Source of the DNA: a virus
Taxonomy: Duplodnaviria > Heunggongvirae > Uroviricota > Caudoviricetes
Strand: one strand, 5' to 3'
DNA: 21,194 bases
Virus record (IMG/VR): IMGVR_UViG_2537561991_000022
Every line of letters starts with the position of its first letter. The first letter of the stretch is position 1. This document shows positions 4,363 to 11,500 of the stretch, in pieces. The position numbers and the translations under genes were made by a program. The notes under the pieces were generated by a model that did not search any database, had not been told where the DNA came from, and saw only the letters and a list, made by a program, of their open reading frames with translations.

Positions 4363-4710
4363 TTACAACATAGTCAGGGACGTAAGCAGTCTTTTAGGCT
4401 GCCGCCAGTCGATACCTTCCAGCAGCATCGCCAGCTGTGCCGGTGTGAGGAACACTTTGCCATCCCGGGCTGACGGCCAGGCGAAGCGGCCGCGCTCCAG
4501 CCGTTTGGTCAGCAGACACAGTCCATCGCCGGTAGACCAGAGGAGCTTTACCTGACTGCCATTACGCCCACGGAAGATAAAAACGTGACCTGACATCGGA
4601 TCGTCTTTCAGCGTCGTCTGCACCTTTGCCGCCAGGCCGTTGAAGCCGTTTCTCATATCGGTGATGCCAGCGACCAGCCAGATCTTTGTCCCTGATGGTA
4701 ATGGGATCAA
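4363..4710 (-). CDS. tnpB: IS66-family accessory protein TnpB (Orf2)
   Basis: 115-aa ORF MIPLPSGTKIWLVAGITDMRNGFNGLAAKV... matches the conserved IS66 Orf2 family from memory; sits between tnpA and tnpC. Confidence 0.85.
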   Translation of the reverse strand: MIPLPSGTKIWLVAGITDMRNGFNGLAAKVQTTLKDDPMSGHVFIFRGRNGSQVKLLWSTGDGLCLLTKRLERGRFAWPSARDGKVFLTPAQLAMLLEGIDWRQPKRLLTSLTML

Positions 4711-5111
4711 CGTTTGAGCTCCCGTATCAGCAGGTTCAGGATATTTTCGCTGATGGCACCATTCAGACGGAGTGATCCGTGCCGGAACGTCACTTCACAG
4801 CTGATATTGAGTGATTCAGGTGTCGCAGCAGCTACAGGTTGTGACCGGGGGGAGGTTGTAGGGACAACATCTTCGGCATCAAGTGTTATCGGGAGCAGCT
4901 CAGGCACGTTGTTTTCTGTTGTTGAAGGAGGACGTAGTTTTCCTTCGCGCCAGTACTGGCGCCACTTGAACAGCAAATTATCGTTGATCCCATGCTCACG
5001 AGCGAGTTGCGCTACGGAGATCTCTGGTCGATGCGAGAGTTCAACCATTTTGATTTTGAACTCAACGGGATAATTAGGGCTTTTTTTACGCACTGCGGTT
5101 AATGATTTCAT
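4707..5111 (-). CDS. tnpA: IS66-family accessory protein TnpA (Orf1, HTH)
   Basis: 134-aa ORF; overlaps the tnpB start by 4 nt (ATGA coupling) as in IS66 elements; first gene inside the right inverted repeat. Confidence 0.85.
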   Translation of the reverse strand: MKSLTAVRKKSPNYPVEFKIKMVELSHRPEISVAQLAREHGINDNLLFKWRQYWREGKLRPPSTTENNVPELLPITLDAEDVVPTTSPRSQPVAAATPESLNISCEVTFRHGSLRLNGAISENILNLLIRELKR

Positions 5112-5192
5112 GGATAGCGTCCACCATATTTGGTGTCCACTATTCTCTCAGGAATTTCAGGATCTGCCAGACGGTGCTGAGACGACGCTTAC

Positions 5193-5200
5193 GCTTGGTG
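5193..5200. repeat. Right copy of the 8-bp target-site duplication GCTTGGTG
   Basis: Identical to 2731-2738, immediately outside the IS terminus ...gacgacgcttac (5192). Confidence 0.7.
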
Positions 5201-5389
5201 TTCTTTCAGTTCTTCAATTCGAATATTGGTTATGTCTGCATGTGCTATCTGCGCCCATATCATCCAGTGGTCATAGCAGTCATTGATGTTCTCTGCTTCG
5301 ATAACTCTGTTGAATGGTTCTCCATTCCATTCACCTGTGACTCGGAAGTGCATTTATCATCTCCATAAAACAAAACCCGCCGTAGCGAG

Positions 5390-6728: not shown

Positions 6729-7010
6729 TCACCGTTCCTTAAAGACGCCGTTTAACATGCCGATCGCCAGGCTTAAATGAGTCGGTGTGAATCCCATCAG
6801 CGTTACCGTTTCGCGGTGCTTCTTCAGTACGCTACGGCAAATGTCATCGACGTTTTTATCCGGAAACTGCTGTCTGGCTTTTTTGATTTCAGAATTAGCC
6901 TGACGGGCAATGCTGCGAAGGGCGTTTTCTTGCTGAGGTGTCACTGAACAAGCCCCATGTCGGCAAGCATAAGCAAACAGAATATGAAGCCCGCTGCCAG
7001 AAAAATGCAT
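6729..7010 (-). CDS. Small hypothetical phage protein (lambda orf61-region homolog); possible internal GTG start at 6944
   Basis: 93-aa ORF whose C-terminal ~70 residues (TPQQENALRSIARQANSEIKKARQQFPDKNVDDICRSVLKKHRETVTLMGFTPTHLSLAIGMLNGVFKER) resemble the lambda early-left small ORF; true start unclear. Confidence 0.5.
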   Translation of the reverse strand: MHFSGSGLHILFAYACRHGACSVTPQQENALRSIARQANSEIKKARQQFPDKNVDDICRSVLKKHRETVTLMGFTPTHLSLAIGMLNGVFKER

Positions 7011-7020
7011 TCAGTGGTTG

Positions 7021-7212
7021 TCATACCTGGTCTCTCTCATCTGCTTCTGCTTTCGCCACCATCATTTCCAGCTTTTGTGAAAGGGATGTGGCTAACGTAT
7101 GAAATTCTTCGTCTGTTTCTACTGGTATTGGCACAAACCTGACTCCAATTTGAGCAAGGCTATGTGCCATCTCAATGCTCGTTCTTAACTCAACAGGAGA
7201 TGCTTTGTGCAT
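7021..7212 (-). CDS. Lambda Orf63-like small protein
   Basis: 63-aa [66 protein letters not shown]; position and length as lambda orf63. Confidence 0.75.
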   Translation of the reverse strand: MHKASPVELRTSIEMAHSLAQIGVRFVPIPVETDEEFHTLATSLSQKLEMMVAKAEADERDQV

Positions 7213-7367
7213 ACAGCCCCTCGTTTATTATTTATCTCCTCAGCCAGCCGCTGGGCTTTCAGTGGATTTTGGATAACAGAAAGGTCGGGAAATACCCAGC
7301 CTCGCTTTGTAACGGAGTAGACGAAAGTGATCGCACCTACCCGGATATTATCGTGAGGATGCTTCAT
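7185..7367 (-). CDS. Lambda Orf60a-like small protein
   Basis: ORF immediately downstream of exo; the 60-aa form starting [27 protein letters not shown]... matches lambda orf60a (the ORF track begins two codons earlier at 7373). Confidence 0.7.
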
Positions 7368-8044
7368 CGCCATTGCTCCCCAAATACAAAACCAATTTCA
7401 GCCAGTGCCTCGTCCATTTTTTCGATGAACTCCGGCACCATCTCGTCAAAACCCGCCATGTACTTTTCATCCCGCTCAACCACGACATAATGCAGTCCTT
7501 CACGCTTCATACGCGGGTCATAGTTGGCAAAGTACCAGGCATCTTTTCGCGTCACCCACATGCTGTACTGCACCTGGGCCATGTAAGCTGACTTTATGGC
7601 CTCGAAACCACCGAGCCGGAACTTCATGAAATCCCGGGAGGTAAACGGGCATTTCAGTTCAAGGCCGTTGCCGTCACTGCATAAACCATCTGGAGAGCAG
7701 GCGGTACGCATACTTTCGTCGCGATAGATGATCGGTGATTCAGTAACATTCACGCCGGAAGTGAACTCAAACAGGGCTCTGGCGTCGTTCTCGTACTGTT
7801 TTCCCCAGGCCAGCGCTTTAGCGTTAACTTCCGGAGCCACACCGGTGCAAACCTCAGCAAGCAGGGTGTGGAAGTAGGACATTTTCATGTCAGGCCACTT
7901 TTTTCCGGAGCGGGGTTTTGCTATTACGTTATGAACTTCTGAAGCTGTGATGACGCCGAGCCGTAATTTGTGCCACGCATCATCCCCCTGTTCGACAGCT
8001 CTCACGTCGATCCCGGTACGCTGCAGGATAATGTCCGGTGTCAT
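7364..8044 (-). CDS. exo: Lambda exonuclease (Red-alpha)
   Basis: 226-aa translation [65 protein letters not shown]... matches lambda Exo; start overlaps the bet stop (ATGA). Confidence 0.95.
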
Positions 8045-8826
8045 GCTGCCACCTTCTGCTCAGTGGCTTTCTGTTTCAGGAATCCAAGAGCTTTCACTGC
8101 TTCGGCCTGTGTCAGTTCTGACGATGCGCGAATGTCGCGGCGAAATATCTGGGAACAGAGCGGCAATAAGTCGTCATCCCATGTTTTATCCAGGGCGATT
8201 AGCAGAGTGTTAATCTCCTGCATGGTTTCATCGTTAACCGGAGTGATGTCGCGTTCCGGCTGGCGTTCTGCAGTGTATGCAGTATTTTCGACAATGCGCT
8301 CGGCTTCATCCTTGTCATAGATACCAGCAAATCCGAAGGCCAGACGGGCACACTGAATCATAGCTTTATGCCGTAACATCCGTTTAGGATGCGACTGCCA
8401 CGGCCCCGTGATTTCTCTGCCTTCGCGGGTTTTGAATGGTTCGCGGCGGCATTCATCCATCCATTCGGTAACGCAGATCGGATGATTACGGTCCTTGCGG
8501 TAAATCCGGCATGTACAGGATTCATTGTCCTGCTCAAAGTCCATGCCATCAAACTGCTGGTTTTCATTGATGATGCGGGACCAGCCATCAACGCCCACCA
8601 CCGGAACGATGCCGTTCTGCTTATCAGGGAAGGCGTAAATTTCTTTCGTCCACGGATTAAGGCCGTACTGGTTGGCGACGATCAACAATGCGATGAACTG
8701 CGCATCGCTGGCATCGCCTTTAAATGCCGTCTGGCGAAGAGTGGTGATCAGTTCCTGTGGGTCGACAGAATCCATGCCGACACGTTCAGCCAGCTTCCCT
8801 GCCAGCGTTGCGAGTGCTGTACTCAT
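8041..8826 (-). CDS. bet: Lambda Bet single-strand annealing protein (Red-beta)
   Basis: 261-aa translation [66 protein letters not shown]... matches lambda Bet. Confidence 0.95.
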
Positions 8827-9346: not shown

Positions 9347-9479
9347 TTTTTGGGACTCCTGGCTGATTAAGTATGTCGATAAGGCGTTTCCATCCGTCAC
9401 GTAATTTACGGGTGATTCGTTCAAGTAAAGATTCGGAAGGGCAGCCAGCAACAGGCCACCCTGCAATGGCATATTGCAT
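9315..9479 (-). CDS. cIII: Lambda CIII (FtsH/HflB inhibitor, stabilises CII)
   Basis: Hand-translated 54-aa [57 protein letters not shown] (below the 60-aa cut-off of the ORF track); matches lambda CIII. Confidence 0.85.
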   Translation of the reverse strand: MQYAIAGWPVAGCPSESLLERITRKLRDGWKRLIDILNQPGVPKNGSNNYGYPD

Positions 9480-9551
9480 GGTGTGCTCCTTATTTATACA
9501 TAACGAAAAACGCCTCGAGTGAAGCGTAATTGGTATGCGGTAACGCCGCGC

Positions 9552-9920
9552 TCAGGCGGCCTTGATAGTCATATCATCTGAATCAAATATTCCTGATGTA
9601 TCGATATCGGTAATTCTTATTCCTTCACTACCATCCATTGGAGGCCATCCTTCCTGACCATTTCCATCATTCCAGTCGAACTCACACACAACACCATATG
9701 CATTTAAGTCGCTTGAAATTGCTATAAGCAGAGCATGTTGCGCCAGCATGATTAATACAGCATTTAATACAGAGCCGTGTTTATTGAGTCGGTATTCAGA
9801 GTCTGACCAGAAATTATTAATCTGGTGAAGTTTTTCCTCTGTCATTACGTCATGGTCGATTTCAATTTCTATTGATGCTTTCCAGTCGTAATCAATGATG
9901 TATTTTTTGATGTTTGACAT
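9552..9920 (-). CDS. ea10: Lambda Ea10 (small early-left protein)
   Basis: 122-aa translation MSNIKKYIIDYDWKASIEIEIDHDVMTEEKLHQINNFWSDSEYRLNKHGSVLNAVLIMLAQHALL... matches lambda Ea10; good SD (GAGGAT). Confidence 0.9.
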   Translation of the reverse strand: MSNIKKYIIDYDWKASIEIEIDHDVMTEEKLHQINNFWSDSEYRLNKHGSVLNAVLIMLAQHALLIAISSDLNAYGVVCEFDWNDGNGQEGWPPMDGSEGIRITDIDTSGIFDSDDMTIKAA

Positions 9921-9940
9921 CTGTTCATATCCTCACAGAT

Positions 9941-9966
9941 AAAAAATCGCCCTCATCTTGGAGGGC
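9941..9966 (-). terminator. Intrinsic terminator just upstream of ea10
   Basis: GC stem gccctc/gagggc (9949-9954 / 9961-9966) with 6-nt loop; on the minus-strand RNA it is followed directly by AUUUUUUAU (plus A-run 9941-9946). Confidence 0.55.
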
Positions 9967-10108
9967 AAAGAAGATTTCCAATAATCAGAACAAGTCGGCT
10001 CCTGTTTAGTTACGAGCGACATTGCTCCGTGTATTCACTCGTTGGAATGAATACACAGCGCTGTGTTTATTCTGTTGTTTGCGTGAAAATGAAATCCGCC
10101 TGAGCGGG

Positions 10109-10990
10109 TTATGACCACTTTTTGTTTGGGTTTCGTTGGTGAGCGTGGTTTACAGGATTATTTGATATACCCCATAACTCTGACTCGCTTATCTCTACAC
10201 GAGAGAAAGACCTGCTTTCTTTCAGTTCTTTTATAAACCTAGAACCTAAGATGACATCTATTGTACCAGAAAGTTCTTGTAAAAGATCTATGTTTTTTCT
10301 GAGGAAGAAAATATCTTCTTTATATTTAATTTTTACATAGAATTTATTCTGTATTTTTAATATATCAAAGCATGGCAGATATCTATATCCCTCATATTTT
10401 CGCCACTGCTTAACAATTATAACATCTTTTTCATTTACTGCATTAATCAGCCCAAGACCAAGTACAGGTATGAATATTCTATTGTCTGCCGAAAGCGTAC
10501 AATTATCACCACCAGGCAAATATGTATAAATCATGTCGGAATTTTTATACGCATCAACGAATGCACGTAAGAAGCGTACATATTTTTGCCATCCGTTTAT
10601 ACCGAATTTACCATATAAGTATTCTTTATTTGTTAGAAGAAAACTATTTGTATCAGGATCCTTATCTACAGACCTGTCGATAAGATCTCCAACTACGTTT
10701 ACAAAGTCAAAGACAGAGTTTAATAAGAACAATTGTCTTTCAGTAGGGCGAATTTCAATTATGTAGCCAGGATGAAGACGATATTGCATCTGCTTACGAA
10801 GTATACCGAACGCTTGGGTCCGAGCATCTGAAAGCAACTTCTTGTCGCCATCGCCGTGAGCATTGTTTCTAATAAAACTGATATAATTTGCTAATTTTTC
10901 AGCCTCTTTTTTGTGTTTTTTTCGCTCTGATGCTGAGTCTATTGGTTTTGGTATGGACTTGTAATCAATCTTCTTCATTACGTACCTCAT
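10109..10990 (-). CDS. Hypothetical 293-aa protein of unknown function in an AT-rich cassette between ea10 and N (lambda ral/sieB position); candidate anti-phage defence, exclusion or anti-restriction factor
   Basis: Uninterrupted ORF, strongly AT-rich versus flanks. Annotated ATG (10988-10990) overlaps the N stop codon (ATGA); an alternative ATG at 10978 (MKKIDYKS...) has an AGGT SD. No motif I can recognise (no P-loop, no Rx4-6H, no obvious PD-(D/E)xK). Confidence 0.65.
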   Translation of the reverse strand: MRYVMKKIDYKSIPKPIDSASERKKHKKEAEKLANYISFIRNNAHGDGDKKLLSDARTQAFGILRKQMQYRLHPGYIIEIRPTERQLFLLNSVFDFVNVVGDLIDRSVDKDPDTNSFLLTNKEYLYGKFGINGWQKYVRFLRAFVDAYKNSDMIYTYLPGGDNCTLSADNRIFIPVLGLGLINAVNEKDVIIVKQWRKYEGYRYLPCFDILKIQNKFYVKIKYKEDIFFLRKNIDLLQELSGTIDVILGSRFIKELKESRSFSRVEISESELWGISNNPVNHAHQRNPNKKWS

Positions 10991-11310
10991 GCCAATGGAA
11001 TGGATTCCCCTTTAACCTTTTGTCTTCCTTGACAAGTTATACCGAACTCACCTGGCTTGCTATACCAAACTCGATGATTCTTGCGCTCAATACGTTGCAG
11101 GTTGCTTTCAATCTGTTCGTGGTATTCAGCCAGCACCGTAAGGTCTATCGGATTCAGTGCGCTTTCTACTCGTGATTTCGGTTTGCGATTCAGCGAGAGA
11201 ATAGGGCGGTTAACTGGTTTAGCGCTTACCCCAACCAACAGGGGATTTGCTGCTTTCCATTGAGCCTGTTTCTCTGCGCGACGTTCGCGGCGGCGTGTTT
11301 GTGCATCCAT
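10987..11310 (-). CDS. N: Lambda N transcription antiterminator
   Basis: 107-aa frame MDAQTRRRERRAEKQAQWKAANPLLVGVSAKPVNRPILSLNRKPKSRVESALNPIDLTVLAEYH... within the 151-aa ORF; the arginine-rich N-terminus matches lambda N. The 44 upstream codons of the ORF are not part of N. Confidence 0.95.
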   Translation of the reverse strand: MDAQTRRRERRAEKQAQWKAANPLLVGVSAKPVNRPILSLNRKPKSRVESALNPIDLTVLAEYHEQIESNLQRIERKNHRVWYSKPGEFGITCQGRQKVKGESIPLA

Positions 11311-11467
11311 CTGGATTCTCCTGTCAGTTAGCTTTGGTTGTGTGTGGGAGTCGTAGTCCTGAACGAAAACACCCCGCAATGGCACATTGGCAGCTAATCC
11401 GGATTCGCACTTCCGGCCAATGCTTCGTTTCGTATCACACACACCAAAGCCTTCTGCTTTGAATGCT

Positions 11468-11500
11468 GCCCTTCTTCAGGGCTTAATTTTTAAGAGCCTC
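11468..11500 (-). promoter_or_regulatory. nutL: nutL (boxA-like GGCTCTTA plus boxB hairpin GCCCTGAAGAAGGGC) on the pL transcript
   Basis: Reverse complement of 11468-11482 is the lambda boxB hairpin; boxA lies just upstream on the leftward transcript with one mismatch to CGCTCTTA. Confidence 0.7.

What the first reader, a model, noticed from the sequence alone, without database searches (positions are those of the whole stretch)
10076..10990. AT-rich single-gene cassette of unknown function where lambda has ral/sieB, between ea10 and N
Gene order and protein sequences on both sides (ea10, N) are lambda-like, but the ~0.9 kb between them is a compositionally distinct AT-rich segment encoding one 293-aa protein with no motif I can place. 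Its start overlaps the N stop codon (ATGA), so it can be translated from the pL transcript, and a weak hairpin plus the strong terminator at 9941-9966 follow it. In lambda this slot holds Ral (anti-restriction) and SieB (exclusion), i.e. a known accessory/defence locus, so a swapped-in gene here is a prime candidate for an undescribed anti-phage or anti-defence function.
Basis: partly seen in the sequence, partly recalled or inferred. Interest (0 to 1): 0.8.

Follow-up and report, generated by a model that had tools for sequence, protein, structure and literature searches.

The report
Nun arrest tail on TnpB-like body
The AT-rich gene between N and ea10 of phage 434 encodes a protein with no tested function: its last 14 residues are identical to the RNA-polymerase-jamming tail of the HK022 exclusion protein Nun, and its body is predicted to fold like the DNA/RNA-recognition half of a TnpB/Cas12 nuclease, so it is probably a transcription-arrest weapon with a new kind of targeting domain.

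Summary
The window is phage 434 (99.9% identical to OL657226). A 916-bp 434-specific segment (10081-10996) replaces lambda ral/sieB. It has the lowest GC in the window (34.6% vs 46.6%) and carries one ORF. The likely start is ATG 10978 (289 aa), not the ATGA overlap at 10990.

"No motif" is wrong. The last 14 residues (VNHAHQRNPNKKWS) are identical to HK022 Nun 96-109, the segment that enters the RNA polymerase cleft and blocks translocation. GenBank already calls the gene "Nun C-terminal peptide-containing protein"; I found no functional study.

New here:
- Homologues only 37-68% identical, with synonymous sites saturated, keep V-N-H-A-H-x-R-x-x-x-K-K-W.
- The gene always follows an N-like gene, or replaces nun after an HK022-like putL, and is always followed by a terminator.
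- Distant relatives with a different tail (GGLPSLGKRR) sit inside BREX operons.

Best reading: a Nun-type tethered arrest factor whose tether is a nuclease-less TnpB-like lobe. Its target, and whether it is expressed in lysogens, are unknown.

The parts
10109..10978 (-). Gene 48 of phage 434 (CPT_434_48), 289 aa plus stop. The alternative upstream ATG at 10990 would give 293 aa.
   Evidence: ORF. GenBank annotation 'Nun C-terminal peptide-containing protein'. Full-length match to PHROG 12139 (unknown function) from residue 5 of the 293-aa ORF. Homologues start at the equivalent Met.
10985..10988 (-). GAGG Shine-Dalgarno, 6 nt upstream of ATG 10978; it lies over the N stop codon.
   Evidence: Read from the sequence. 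An RBS is annotated here in OL657226.
10112..10153 (-). Codons for the C-terminal 14 residues VNHAHQRNPNKKWS (aa 276-289): the Nun-type RNA polymerase arrest peptide.
   Evidence: Identical to HK022 Nun residues 96-109. Hit to PHROG 5632 'Nun-like' over aa 274-293 of the 293-aa ORF. V, N, H, A, H, R, K, K, W are invariant in homologues of 37-68% identity. These residues include N97, H98, H100, R102, K106, K107 and W108, which contact the beta' rudder, RNA and DNA inside the elongation complex (PMC5386594).
10307..10780 (-). Core, aa 67-224: predicted TnpB/Cas12-like REC lobe. One WED strand, then a helical REC insertion, then the rest of the WED beta-barrel. No RuvC domain.
10784..10933 (-). 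N-terminal helical hairpin (aa 16-65), opening with a variable basic patch (SERKKHKKEAEK). It is specific to the Nun-tail subfamily.
   Evidence: Model secondary structure, pLDDT 85-97. Absent from most distant relatives. Basic density is similar to arginine-rich motifs, but no detectable homology to them.
10181..10210 (-). Conserved motif SFSRVEISES (aa 257-266), between the long linker helix (aa 221-259) and the disordered tail.
   Evidence: S[FY][SA]RV[DE][FI] is shared by the Nun-tail subfamily and by the distant GGLPSLGKRR-tail subfamily.
10086..10108 (-).
   Evidence: Sequence and fold. Nearly identical after HK022 nun. Every divergent homologue has a canonical GC hairpin plus T-run within 40 nt of its stop. 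Not called by the consensus scan.
9939..10154 (-). Segment shared with HK022 at about 95% DNA identity: the tail codons plus the sequence downstream of nun. In HK022 it is split by IS903. The mosaic junction lies inside the gene at about codon 276.
   Evidence: blastn and alignment. HK022 annotation with IS903.
9939..9968 (-). Strong intrinsic terminator upstream of ea10.
   Evidence: 8-bp stem, T-run. Annotated as a terminator in OL657226.
10987..11310 (-). Lambda-type N gene, directly upstream and co-transcribed from pL. nutL boxB lies at 11467-11483.
   Evidence: 92% identical to lambda N DNA.

Best explanation
Gene 48 of phage 434 most likely encodes a modular, Nun-type transcription-arrest factor.

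Step 1 (shown by sequence; the mechanism is taken from HK022 Nun). The disordered C-terminus ends in the 14-residue Nun warhead. In Nun, this segment threads between the beta' lid and rudder of a transcribing E. coli RNA polymerase. [quoted passage not shown]

Step 2 (inferred). In Nun the warhead is weak on its own. It is made specific by a tether, an arginine-rich motif that binds lambda boxB RNA. Here the tether is replaced by a ~260-aa body. Its core is a nuclease-less TnpB/Cas12-like WED+REC lobe, which in TnpB holds the TAM DNA duplex and part of the guide RNA. The body would bind a nucleic-acid feature of a target, either a DNA motif or a structured nascent RNA. That raises the local concentration of the tail at polymerases transcribing the target.

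Step 3 (inferred from position). The gene is made with N on the first, unantiterminated pL transcript. In HK022-like phages it is made from the nun slot. The most likely targets are competing phages or other mobile elements, i.e. exclusion. No adjacent guide RNA seems to be involved.
For: Tail:
- It is identical to Nun 96-109.
- The residues invariant across seven lineages (V N H A H. R... K K W) include the ones that make contacts or matter functionally in Nun. The positions that vary are Q101, N103, P104 and N105; N103 makes no important contact (PMC5386594).
- Selection: dN/dS = 0.05 for L034 vs L125. In the other pairs dS is saturated with dN 0.22-0.60. Length is constant at 288-290 aa.
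- The tail is disordered in the model, as Nun's is off the polymerase.

Modularity:
- A scan for the tail in viral contigs found only two architectures. One is small proteins of 79-123 aa carrying many different arginine-rich motifs. The other is this ~290-aa type.
- In Nun, nut RNA acts only as a tether, and overexpressed Nun is toxic (PMC4496710).

Body:
- The strand/helix order matches WED-REC-WED (domain limits from PMC10097598).

Context:
- The gene lies directly after N-like genes with different arginine-rich motifs (434, L006, L034, L059, L078, L125).
- In L004/L033 it lies directly after an HK022-like cI-pL-putL with no N, exactly where nun sits.
- L034 carries it in tandem with a small Nun-like gene.
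- Distant relatives lie in BREX operons and defence islands.
Against: - No experiment exists. Neither RNA polymerase binding nor arrest has been tested for this protein.
- Nun H93 and R94, which touch upstream DNA, are N-N here.
- The fold assignment rests on a predicted structure. Sequence-level support is marginal (hhalign P=0.011, probability 3.9%; no Pfam hit), and the Foldseek E-values are not significant.
- A WED+REC lobe without RuvC and without a guide has no precedent as an autonomous binding module.
- The target is unknown.
- From my own knowledge, lambda plates on 434 lysogens in classical immunity tests. So lambda-type nut is probably not the target, or the gene is silent in lysogens.
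- No promoter for lysogenic expression was found.
- In 434 itself the tail DNA is ~95% identical to HK022, so that particular copy could be a recent recombinant.
Confidence: 0.5

Rival explanations
1. Same biochemistry (polymerase arrest through the Nun tail), but used for the phage's own lytic programme rather than for exclusion. The protein is made with N at the very start of infection or induction. It would shut down or re-route host transcription, or transcription that is not antiterminated. The phage's own N-modified (or put-modified) polymerases would be protected.
For: - Invariant placement immediately after N or putL and before the first terminator makes it an immediate-early lytic product.
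- No promoter for lysogenic expression was detected.
- Overproduced Nun arrests polymerase generally and is toxic (PMC4496710; PMC5386594).
- From my own knowledge, untested here: the C-terminal part of lambda N also occupies the polymerase cleft in the antitermination complex, which could give immunity.
Against: - It does not explain why a large, conserved nucleic-acid-recognition-like domain is needed.
- HK022 nun sits in the same slot and is an exclusion gene with no role in lytic growth.
- The gene is rare (83 of 5426 complete E. coli genomes) and replaceable by ral/sieB. That fits an accessory gene better than a core regulator.
Confidence: 0.2
2. An RNA-guided arrest factor. The TnpB-like lobe still binds an omega-RNA-like guide and uses base pairing to bring the Nun tail to polymerases on complementary DNA or RNA.
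For: - Fold similarity to the guide- and target-binding lobe of TnpB/Cas12.
- Precedent for nuclease-dead TnpB/Cas12 proteins that act on transcription (PMC10705468 and PMC12259091, listed; PMC10691335).
Against: - In TnpB the guide scaffold is held by WED together with RuvC (PMC10097598), and RuvC is absent here.
- No conserved non-coding element accompanies the gene. Upstream is N or putL, and downstream is only a terminator.
- The BREX-embedded relatives have 23- and 34-nt intergenic gaps.
- Rfam finds nothing.
Confidence: 0.08
3. The Nun tail is a passenger. The tail codons plus terminator are a recombination linker shared among lambdoid pL operons. The protein's real function lies in its body: a DNA-binding regulator, an anti-restriction factor like Ral, or a partner of another system as in BREX. 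It would be unrelated to polymerase arrest.
For: - The 434/HK022 identity starts inside the gene and continues ~75 nt past the stop, as expected for a mosaic junction.
- The distant relatives work with a different tail.
- The slot holds Ral in lambda.
Against: - The tail is kept at the protein level in lineages whose DNA has diverged to saturation, and the functional residues of Nun are among those conserved.
- The constant C-terminal position and the Trp-(Ser)-stop ending are kept.
- There is no similarity to Ral, SieB or any PADLOC, Pfam or NCBIfam model.
Confidence: 0.12
4. A decaying, non-functional remnant of a TnpB gene trapped in prophages.
For: - The body lacks the nuclease half.
- Some E. 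coli copies are truncated, IS-disrupted or fused.
Against: - Intact ORFs of 288-290 aa occur in seven lineages down to 37% identity, with dN/dS 0.05 where it is measurable.
- 83 full-length copies occur in complete E. coli genomes.
- Synteny and the following terminator are conserved.
Confidence: 0.03

Closest known systems
HK022 Nun (transcription-arrest exclusion protein; PHROG 5632)
   Same: - Identical last 14 residues, including N97, H98, H100, R102, K106, K107, W108 and S109.
- A disordered tail at the extreme C-terminus.
- Encoded at the head of the pL operon and followed by the same hairpin.
- In HK022-like phages (L004, L033) the 290-aa gene sits exactly where nun sits.
   Different: - 289 aa instead of ~110 aa.
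- No detectable arginine-rich boxB-binding motif.
- Nun residues 87-95 (including H93 and R94) are not conserved.
- The body is a folded TnpB-like domain.
- In 434 it coexists with a lambda-type N, so lambda nut is unlikely to be its target.
TnpB / Cas12 RNA-guided nucleases (IS200/IS605 OrfB; e.g. ISDra2 TnpB 8H1J, Cas12n 9UDI)
   Same: - A weak collinear profile alignment to E. coli InsQ residues 2-170.
   Different: - No RuvC, no TNB/zinc ribbon, no catalytic D-E-D.
- No transposon ends or TnpA.
- No adjacent guide RNA.
- Not detected by Pfam TnpB models.
- Carries an N-terminal helical hairpin and a C-terminal effector tail.
Nuclease-dead TnpB/Cas12 transcription regulators (TldR; dCas12f-sigmaE; Cas12m)
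   Same: A TnpB-derived scaffold repurposed to act on transcription, some of them in prophages.
   Different: - Those keep the whole bilobed protein with an inactivated RuvC and a guide RNA. They act as roadblocks or recruit sigma.
- This protein keeps only one lobe and would act through a peptide inserted into RNA polymerase.
Lambda Ral and SieB (occupants of the same slot)
   Same: An accessory, exchangeable cassette between N and ea10 in the pL operon.
   Different: No sequence or fold relationship. The expected mechanism is different.

Membership tests
HK022 Nun family | C-terminal arrest peptide with N97, H98, H100, R102, K106, K107 and W108 at the extreme C-terminus | tested here: met
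   14 of 14 residues identical to Nun 96-109. Invariant in seven lineages. Residue roles from PMC5386594.
HK022 Nun family | N-terminal arginine-rich motif that binds boxB of a nut site | tested here: not met
   The PHROG Nun profile aligns only to the last 20 residues. phmmer of 41 small Nun-like N-termini against the 290-aa bodies gives only bit scores of about 5. A basic patch exists at aa ~4-26 (7-9 K/R in 22 aa), but it is Lys-rich in 434 and not homologous.
HK022 Nun family | Small (~80-125 aa), largely unstructured protein | tested here: not met
   289 aa with a confidently folded core of about 210 aa.
HK022 Nun family | First gene of the pL operon in an N-less, put-dependent phage | tested here: inconclusive
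   Not so in 434, where it is the second gene, after N. Met by the homologues in L004 and L033, which follow an HK022-like cI-pL-putL.
HK022 Nun family | Blocks RNA polymerase translocation and excludes a superinfecting phage | not testable with these tools
   Needs in vitro transcription and plaque assays.
TnpB/Cas12 superfamily | WED (OB-fold barrel) with a REC helical domain inserted between strands 1 and 2 | tested here: met
   [not shown]
TnpB/Cas12 superfamily | RuvC nuclease domain with the D-E-D triad, plus a TNB/zinc-ribbon insertion | tested here: not met
   After the WED barrel, only one helix (aa 221-259) and a disordered tail remain. No hit to the Pfam TnpB models (PF12323, PF01385, PF07282, as listed) for any of 24 members.
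TnpB/Cas12 superfamily | Guide RNA (omega RNA, or crRNA/tracrRNA) encoded at or after the 3' end of the gene | tested here: not met
   Downstream is only a terminator hairpin, then sequence shared with lambda, which lacks the gene. Rfam finds nothing. The BREX-embedded relatives have 23- and 34-nt gaps. A guide encoded elsewhere is not excluded.
TnpB/Cas12 superfamily | Statistically supported sequence homology | tested here: inconclusive
   hhalign of the family profile against 19 InsQ-like N-terminal halves: collinear over 147 columns, P=0.011, probability 3.9%. Against a single sequence, E=0.042. A PDB sequence search finds nothing.
TldR / nuclease-dead TnpB regulators | Full bilobed TnpB scaffold with mutated RuvC and an adjacent guide RNA | tested here: not met
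   As in the two rows above; description of TldR-type proteins from PMC10691335.
Known anti-phage defence systems (PADLOC 2.0) | Match to any model of a known defence protein | tested here: not met
   No hit for the 434 protein or for five distant relatives.
Lambda Ral / SieB | Sequence similarity to Ral or SieB families | tested here: not met
   Only PHROG 12139 and the Nun tail are hit. Pfam and NCBIfam give nothing. The lambda DNA in this interval does not align.

The most novel reading that the evidence does not exclude
A previously unrecognised protein family in which the nucleic-acid-recognition lobe of a TnpB/Cas12 ancestor, stripped of its nuclease, serves as a sequence-specific tether for short interchangeable C-terminal effector peptides. 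One tail is the Nun peptide that jams RNA polymerase; it is found in lambdoid phages such as 434. Another is the GGLPSLGK(R/G)R tail of members built into BREX operons. If so, 434 gp48 would be a naturally occurring, site-directed polymerase-arrest device. The BREX members might reveal how BREX touches the transcription or replication machinery.
Probability: 0.3. Interest if true: 0.9.

Novelty: new variant of a known kind. Interest (0 to 1): 0.72.

Why it matters
Nun has been treated as a one-off. The review read calls its specificity unique.

- These results suggest the Nun tail is a portable warhead, attached to many different tethers. One tether appears derived from the TnpB/Cas12 recognition lobe. 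That would link two well-studied fields, transcription elongation control and RNA-guided nuclease evolution, in a classical phage that has been in laboratories since the 1950s.
- The common laboratory hybrid lambda imm434 carries lambda's ral/sieB in this slot instead, which may be why the gene was never studied.
- It gives a directly testable candidate for a new exclusion mechanism.
- If the tether is sequence-specific, it also offers a compact natural design for targeted transcription arrest.
- The BREX-embedded relatives offer a new handle on a defence system whose mechanism is still unclear.

Tried and rejected
- Pfam, NCBIfam and PADLOC scans of the protein gave nothing. A Pfam scan of all 24 family members, and of ten distant members, gave nothing meaningful.
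- The first AlphaFold run, with only 3 sequences, was unusable (pLDDT 45) and was not searched.
- A PDB sequence-profile search gave only noise.
- Rfam on the window and related loci found only the cIII thermoregulator and a tRNA.
- The promoter scan found no candidate upstream of the gene, and the number of sites was no higher than in shuffles.
- A homology test of the N-terminal basic patch against arginine-rich motifs of small Nun-likes was negative. I keep the patch only as a lead.
- The genome-contig scan (one genome per species) returned only small Nun-like tails in Oxalobacter, Escherichia sp., Proteus and Shimwellia, and no full-length relative.
- Literature searches for phage 434 + Nun, TnpB + Nun, 'Nun-like', and the 434 genome announcement found no study of this protein. 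A search for overlap between the N and Nun sites on polymerase gave nothing usable.
- I considered that the sequence downstream of the stop might encode a guide RNA. I rejected this because that sequence is shared with lambda, which lacks the gene.

Full report
**Identity of the window and check of the observation**

The region 9900-11500 is 99.9% identical to Escherichia phage 434 (OL657226/OL657227).

- Homology to lambda runs through cIII-ea10 up to 10080 (98%) and resumes at 10997 in N (92%). The 434-specific insert is therefore 10081-10996.
- In lambda the same interval holds ral, orf28 and sieB.
- The gene has 34.6% GC against 46.6% for the window. It is the lowest-GC 870-nt stretch in the 21 kb (profile).
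- The ATG at 10990 does overlap the N stop codon. The better start is ATG 10978. A GAGG lies 6 nt upstream; GenBank uses this start (CPT_434_48, 289 aa); the PHROG 12139 profile begins at residue 5 of the longer ORF; and every homologue starts at the equivalent Met.
- The strong terminator at 9947-9968 is confirmed. The 'weak hairpin' is CCCGCTCAGGCGG plus ATTTCATTTT, directly after the stop.

Residue numbers below use the 289-aa protein.

Pfam, NCBIfam and PADLOC find nothing. PHROGs gives a second hit: the last 20 residues match the 'Nun-like transcription termination factor' family.

- The HK022 Nun sequence translated from AF069308 ends ...HRVVNHAHQRNPNKKWS. The 434 protein ends ...NNPVNHAHQRNPNKKWS, so 14 of 14 residues are identical to Nun 96-109.
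- GenBank already labels the gene 'Nun C-terminal peptide-containing protein'. The genome announcement does not discuss it, and I found no functional work.
- According to the cryo-EM study of Nun (PMC5386594), only Nun residues 87-109 are ordered on the elongation complex, and they contain all known determinants of arrest. Residues 97-100 contact the beta' rudder, RNA and template DNA. Residues 102-109 fill a pocket between the hybrid and downstream DNA. Nun lacking its last 13 residues is inactive and does not bind polymerase.
- Of the 23 ordered residues, the 434 protein keeps the inner 14. It does not keep H93 and R94, which touch upstream DNA.

**Is the tail a recombination scar or under selection?**

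In 434 itself, the DNA from about codon 276 to ~75 nt past the stop is ~95% identical to HK022. A further shared stretch lies beyond the IS903 insertion in HK022. So a mosaic junction lies inside the gene.

The family as a whole shows selection, however.

- Searches of 5.8 and 1.84 billion proteins, plus viral contigs, found few relatives. They form seven lineages of 288-290 aa at 37-68% identity to 434.
- All keep V-N-H-A-H-x-R-x-x-x-K-K-W(-S), although the DNA encoding it has diverged.
- The four variable positions correspond to Nun Q101, N103, P104 and N105. The structural paper describes N103 as making no important contact. The invariant positions include the residues that make contacts or matter functionally.
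- dN/dS is 0.05 for the one pair where dS is measurable. Elsewhere dS is saturated while dN is 0.22-0.60.
- The gene is intact in 83 of 5426 complete E. coli genomes, always chromosomal, with an N gene annotated beside it in most of the listed records.

**The body**

With only three sequences AlphaFold failed (pLDDT 45). The exhaustive profile search added about 20 distant relatives of 213-326 aa that share residues ~73-227. With that 24-sequence alignment the model reached pLDDT 82 and pTM 0.72. It has these parts:

- a confident region, aa 11-229;
- a long helix, aa 221-259;
- a disordered tail, aa 260-289.

Fold searches gave the following.

- Foldseek against PDB also lists Cas12l/f/k/p first. 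Against BFVD, giant-virus 'transposases' (mimivirus, Klosneuvirus, Chlorella virus) take five of the top seven places, behind an uncharacterized Dickeya phage protein. E-values are only 0.003-0.2.
- The order of elements is one strand (71-77), helices (80-145), then a sheet with one helix (152-219). This matches the TnpB REC lobe. In ISDra2 TnpB the WED domain is residues 1-12 and 117-176, REC is 13-116, and the TAM duplex binds in the WED/REC cleft (PMC10097598).
- Nothing corresponds to RuvC or TNB.
- Sequence support is marginal. hhalign against 19 InsQ-like N-terminal halves is collinear over 147 columns, pairing IEIRPTERQ with FQLRPGGQQ and RIFIPVLGLGLI with RIFLPKLGWMRY, but P is only 0.011.

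I therefore treat 'TnpB-like REC lobe' as a well-supported fold prediction, not as proven homology. The PNAS census of exapted TnpBs describes only proteins that keep the RuvC scaffold. None resembles this one.

**Context**

The gene is always the first accessory gene of a pL operon.

- In 434, L006, L034, L059, L078 and L125 it starts 1-22 nt after an N-like gene, and those N genes carry different arginine-rich motifs.
- In L004 and L033 there is no N. The gene follows a cI-pL-putL region that is 72.6% identical to HK022, with an almost identical putL. That is exactly where HK022 has nun.
- Every copy is followed within 40 nt by a GC hairpin plus T-run.

So the protein is encoded on the first transcript made from pL, before antitermination is needed. 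In HK022-like phages it would be expressed however nun is expressed. I could not find a promoter that would express it from a repressed 434 prophage.

**The tail as a portable module**

A degenerate DNA pattern for NHAHxRxxxKKW was scanned over viral contigs. Together with the loci already held, it gave 143 matches and 65 distinct ORFs. Apart from fragments and one chance match, they fall into two architectures.

- Small proteins of 79-123 aa with at least a dozen different arginine-rich N-termini. Some have an N-terminus nearly identical to a lambda-type N motif.
- The ~290-aa type described here.

L034 has N, the 290-aa gene and a 102-aa small Nun-like gene in a row. Hafnia phage Pocitis76 has N followed by two small Nun-likes. 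This fits the view from the literature that nut RNA merely tethers Nun near the polymerase, and that untargeted Nun at high dose arrests generally and is toxic.

**Distant relatives**

Members that share the core and the S[FY][SA]RV[DE][FI] motif end instead in ...GGLPSLGK(R/G/H)R. Two of them lie between brxC and pglX in BrxA-BrxB-BrxC-X-PglX operons, with 23- and 34-nt gaps. Another lies among NYN/OST-HTH, RelA_SpoT, PLD and MZB genes. I do not know what this second tail binds.

**Mechanism proposed**

Shown:
- the Nun warhead is present and under selection;
- a folded body with a TnpB-like REC-lobe prediction;
- conserved placement at the head of pL and replacement of nun.

Inferred:
- the tail enters the polymerase cleft as in Nun;
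- the body is the tether and recognises a DNA motif or structured RNA on a target;
- the targets are competing phages or other mobile elements.

The main rival keeps the biochemistry but assigns it to early lytic host takeover. A guide-RNA version is unlikely, because RuvC, which helps hold the guide in TnpB, is missing and no conserved non-coding partner exists. A pure 'scar' or pseudogene reading conflicts with the conservation data.

**Verdict**

The gene is not motif-less, and its tail was already noted in GenBank. Its function is untested. The TnpB-like body, the family structure and the BREX relatives appear to be unreported in the literature I could search. I rate it a new variant of a known kind (a Nun-type arrest factor) with interest 0.72.

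Noticed in passing
L034 8037-8345 (+); also L003 2504-2770 and 2878-3183: Phages that have their own N also carry small Nun-tail genes downstream. L034 has N, then the 290-aa gene, then a 102-aa arginine-rich Nun-like ORF that the source's gene caller missed. Hafnia phage Pocitis76 has N followed by two Nun-likes annotated only as 'transcriptional regulator'.
   Followed up: partly
Loci L039-L152 from the viral-contig pattern scan: Small Nun-like proteins (79-123 aa) are much more diverse than HK022 Nun. There are at least a dozen unrelated arginine-rich N-termini on the same VNHAHxRxxxKKW tail. Several have an N-terminus almost identical to a lambda-type N motif (MDAQARRREKRKEKQEEWKR...). This suggests a family of exclusion factors, each aimed at a different nut site.
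   Followed up: partly
L035, L036 and L037 at 7001-7867; L038 at 4390-5256: Distant relatives of the 434 protein share its core but end in GGLPSLGK(G/R)R. They are encoded between brxC and pglX inside BREX operons (BrxA, BrxB, BrxC, X, PglX, two unknown genes, an HSP70-like gene), in L035/L036 a few genes downstream of a weak TrfA-like gene. They match no PADLOC or Pfam model.
   Followed up: partly
Contigs of P0029 (no DNA held): Another GGLPSLGKHR-tail relative lies next to ParB_N, NYN+OST-HTH, a 1003-aa RelA_SpoT protein, PLDc_2 and MZB genes, which looks like a defence island.
   Followed up: no
L004 2000-3983; L033 2913-4846: A phage with an HK022-like cI, pL and near-identical putL has the 290-aa TnpB-like gene in place of nun and has no N gene.
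   Followed up: yes
P0008 (96 aa, E. coli); compare window 8041-8826: A chimeric ORF joins the first 23 residues of Bet ([23 protein letters not shown]) to the last 73 residues of gene 48. This implies a prophage deletion from within gene 48 to the start of bet that keeps the Nun tail in frame.
   Followed up: no
L002 2930-3853 (HK022), versus window 9939-10154: The sequence shared by 434 and HK022 downstream of the Nun tail is interrupted in HK022 by IS903. The two halves match window 10042-10154 and 9939-10050.
   Followed up: yes
window 11467-11483: The terminator-like site reported on the + strand at 11468-11482 (GCCCTTCTTCAGGGC) is the nutL boxB hairpin read on the wrong strand, not a terminator.
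   Followed up: yes
window 9434-9492 (-): Rfam Lambda_thermo (cIII thermoregulator), 88.5 bits, as expected for a lambda-like cIII leader.
   Followed up: no
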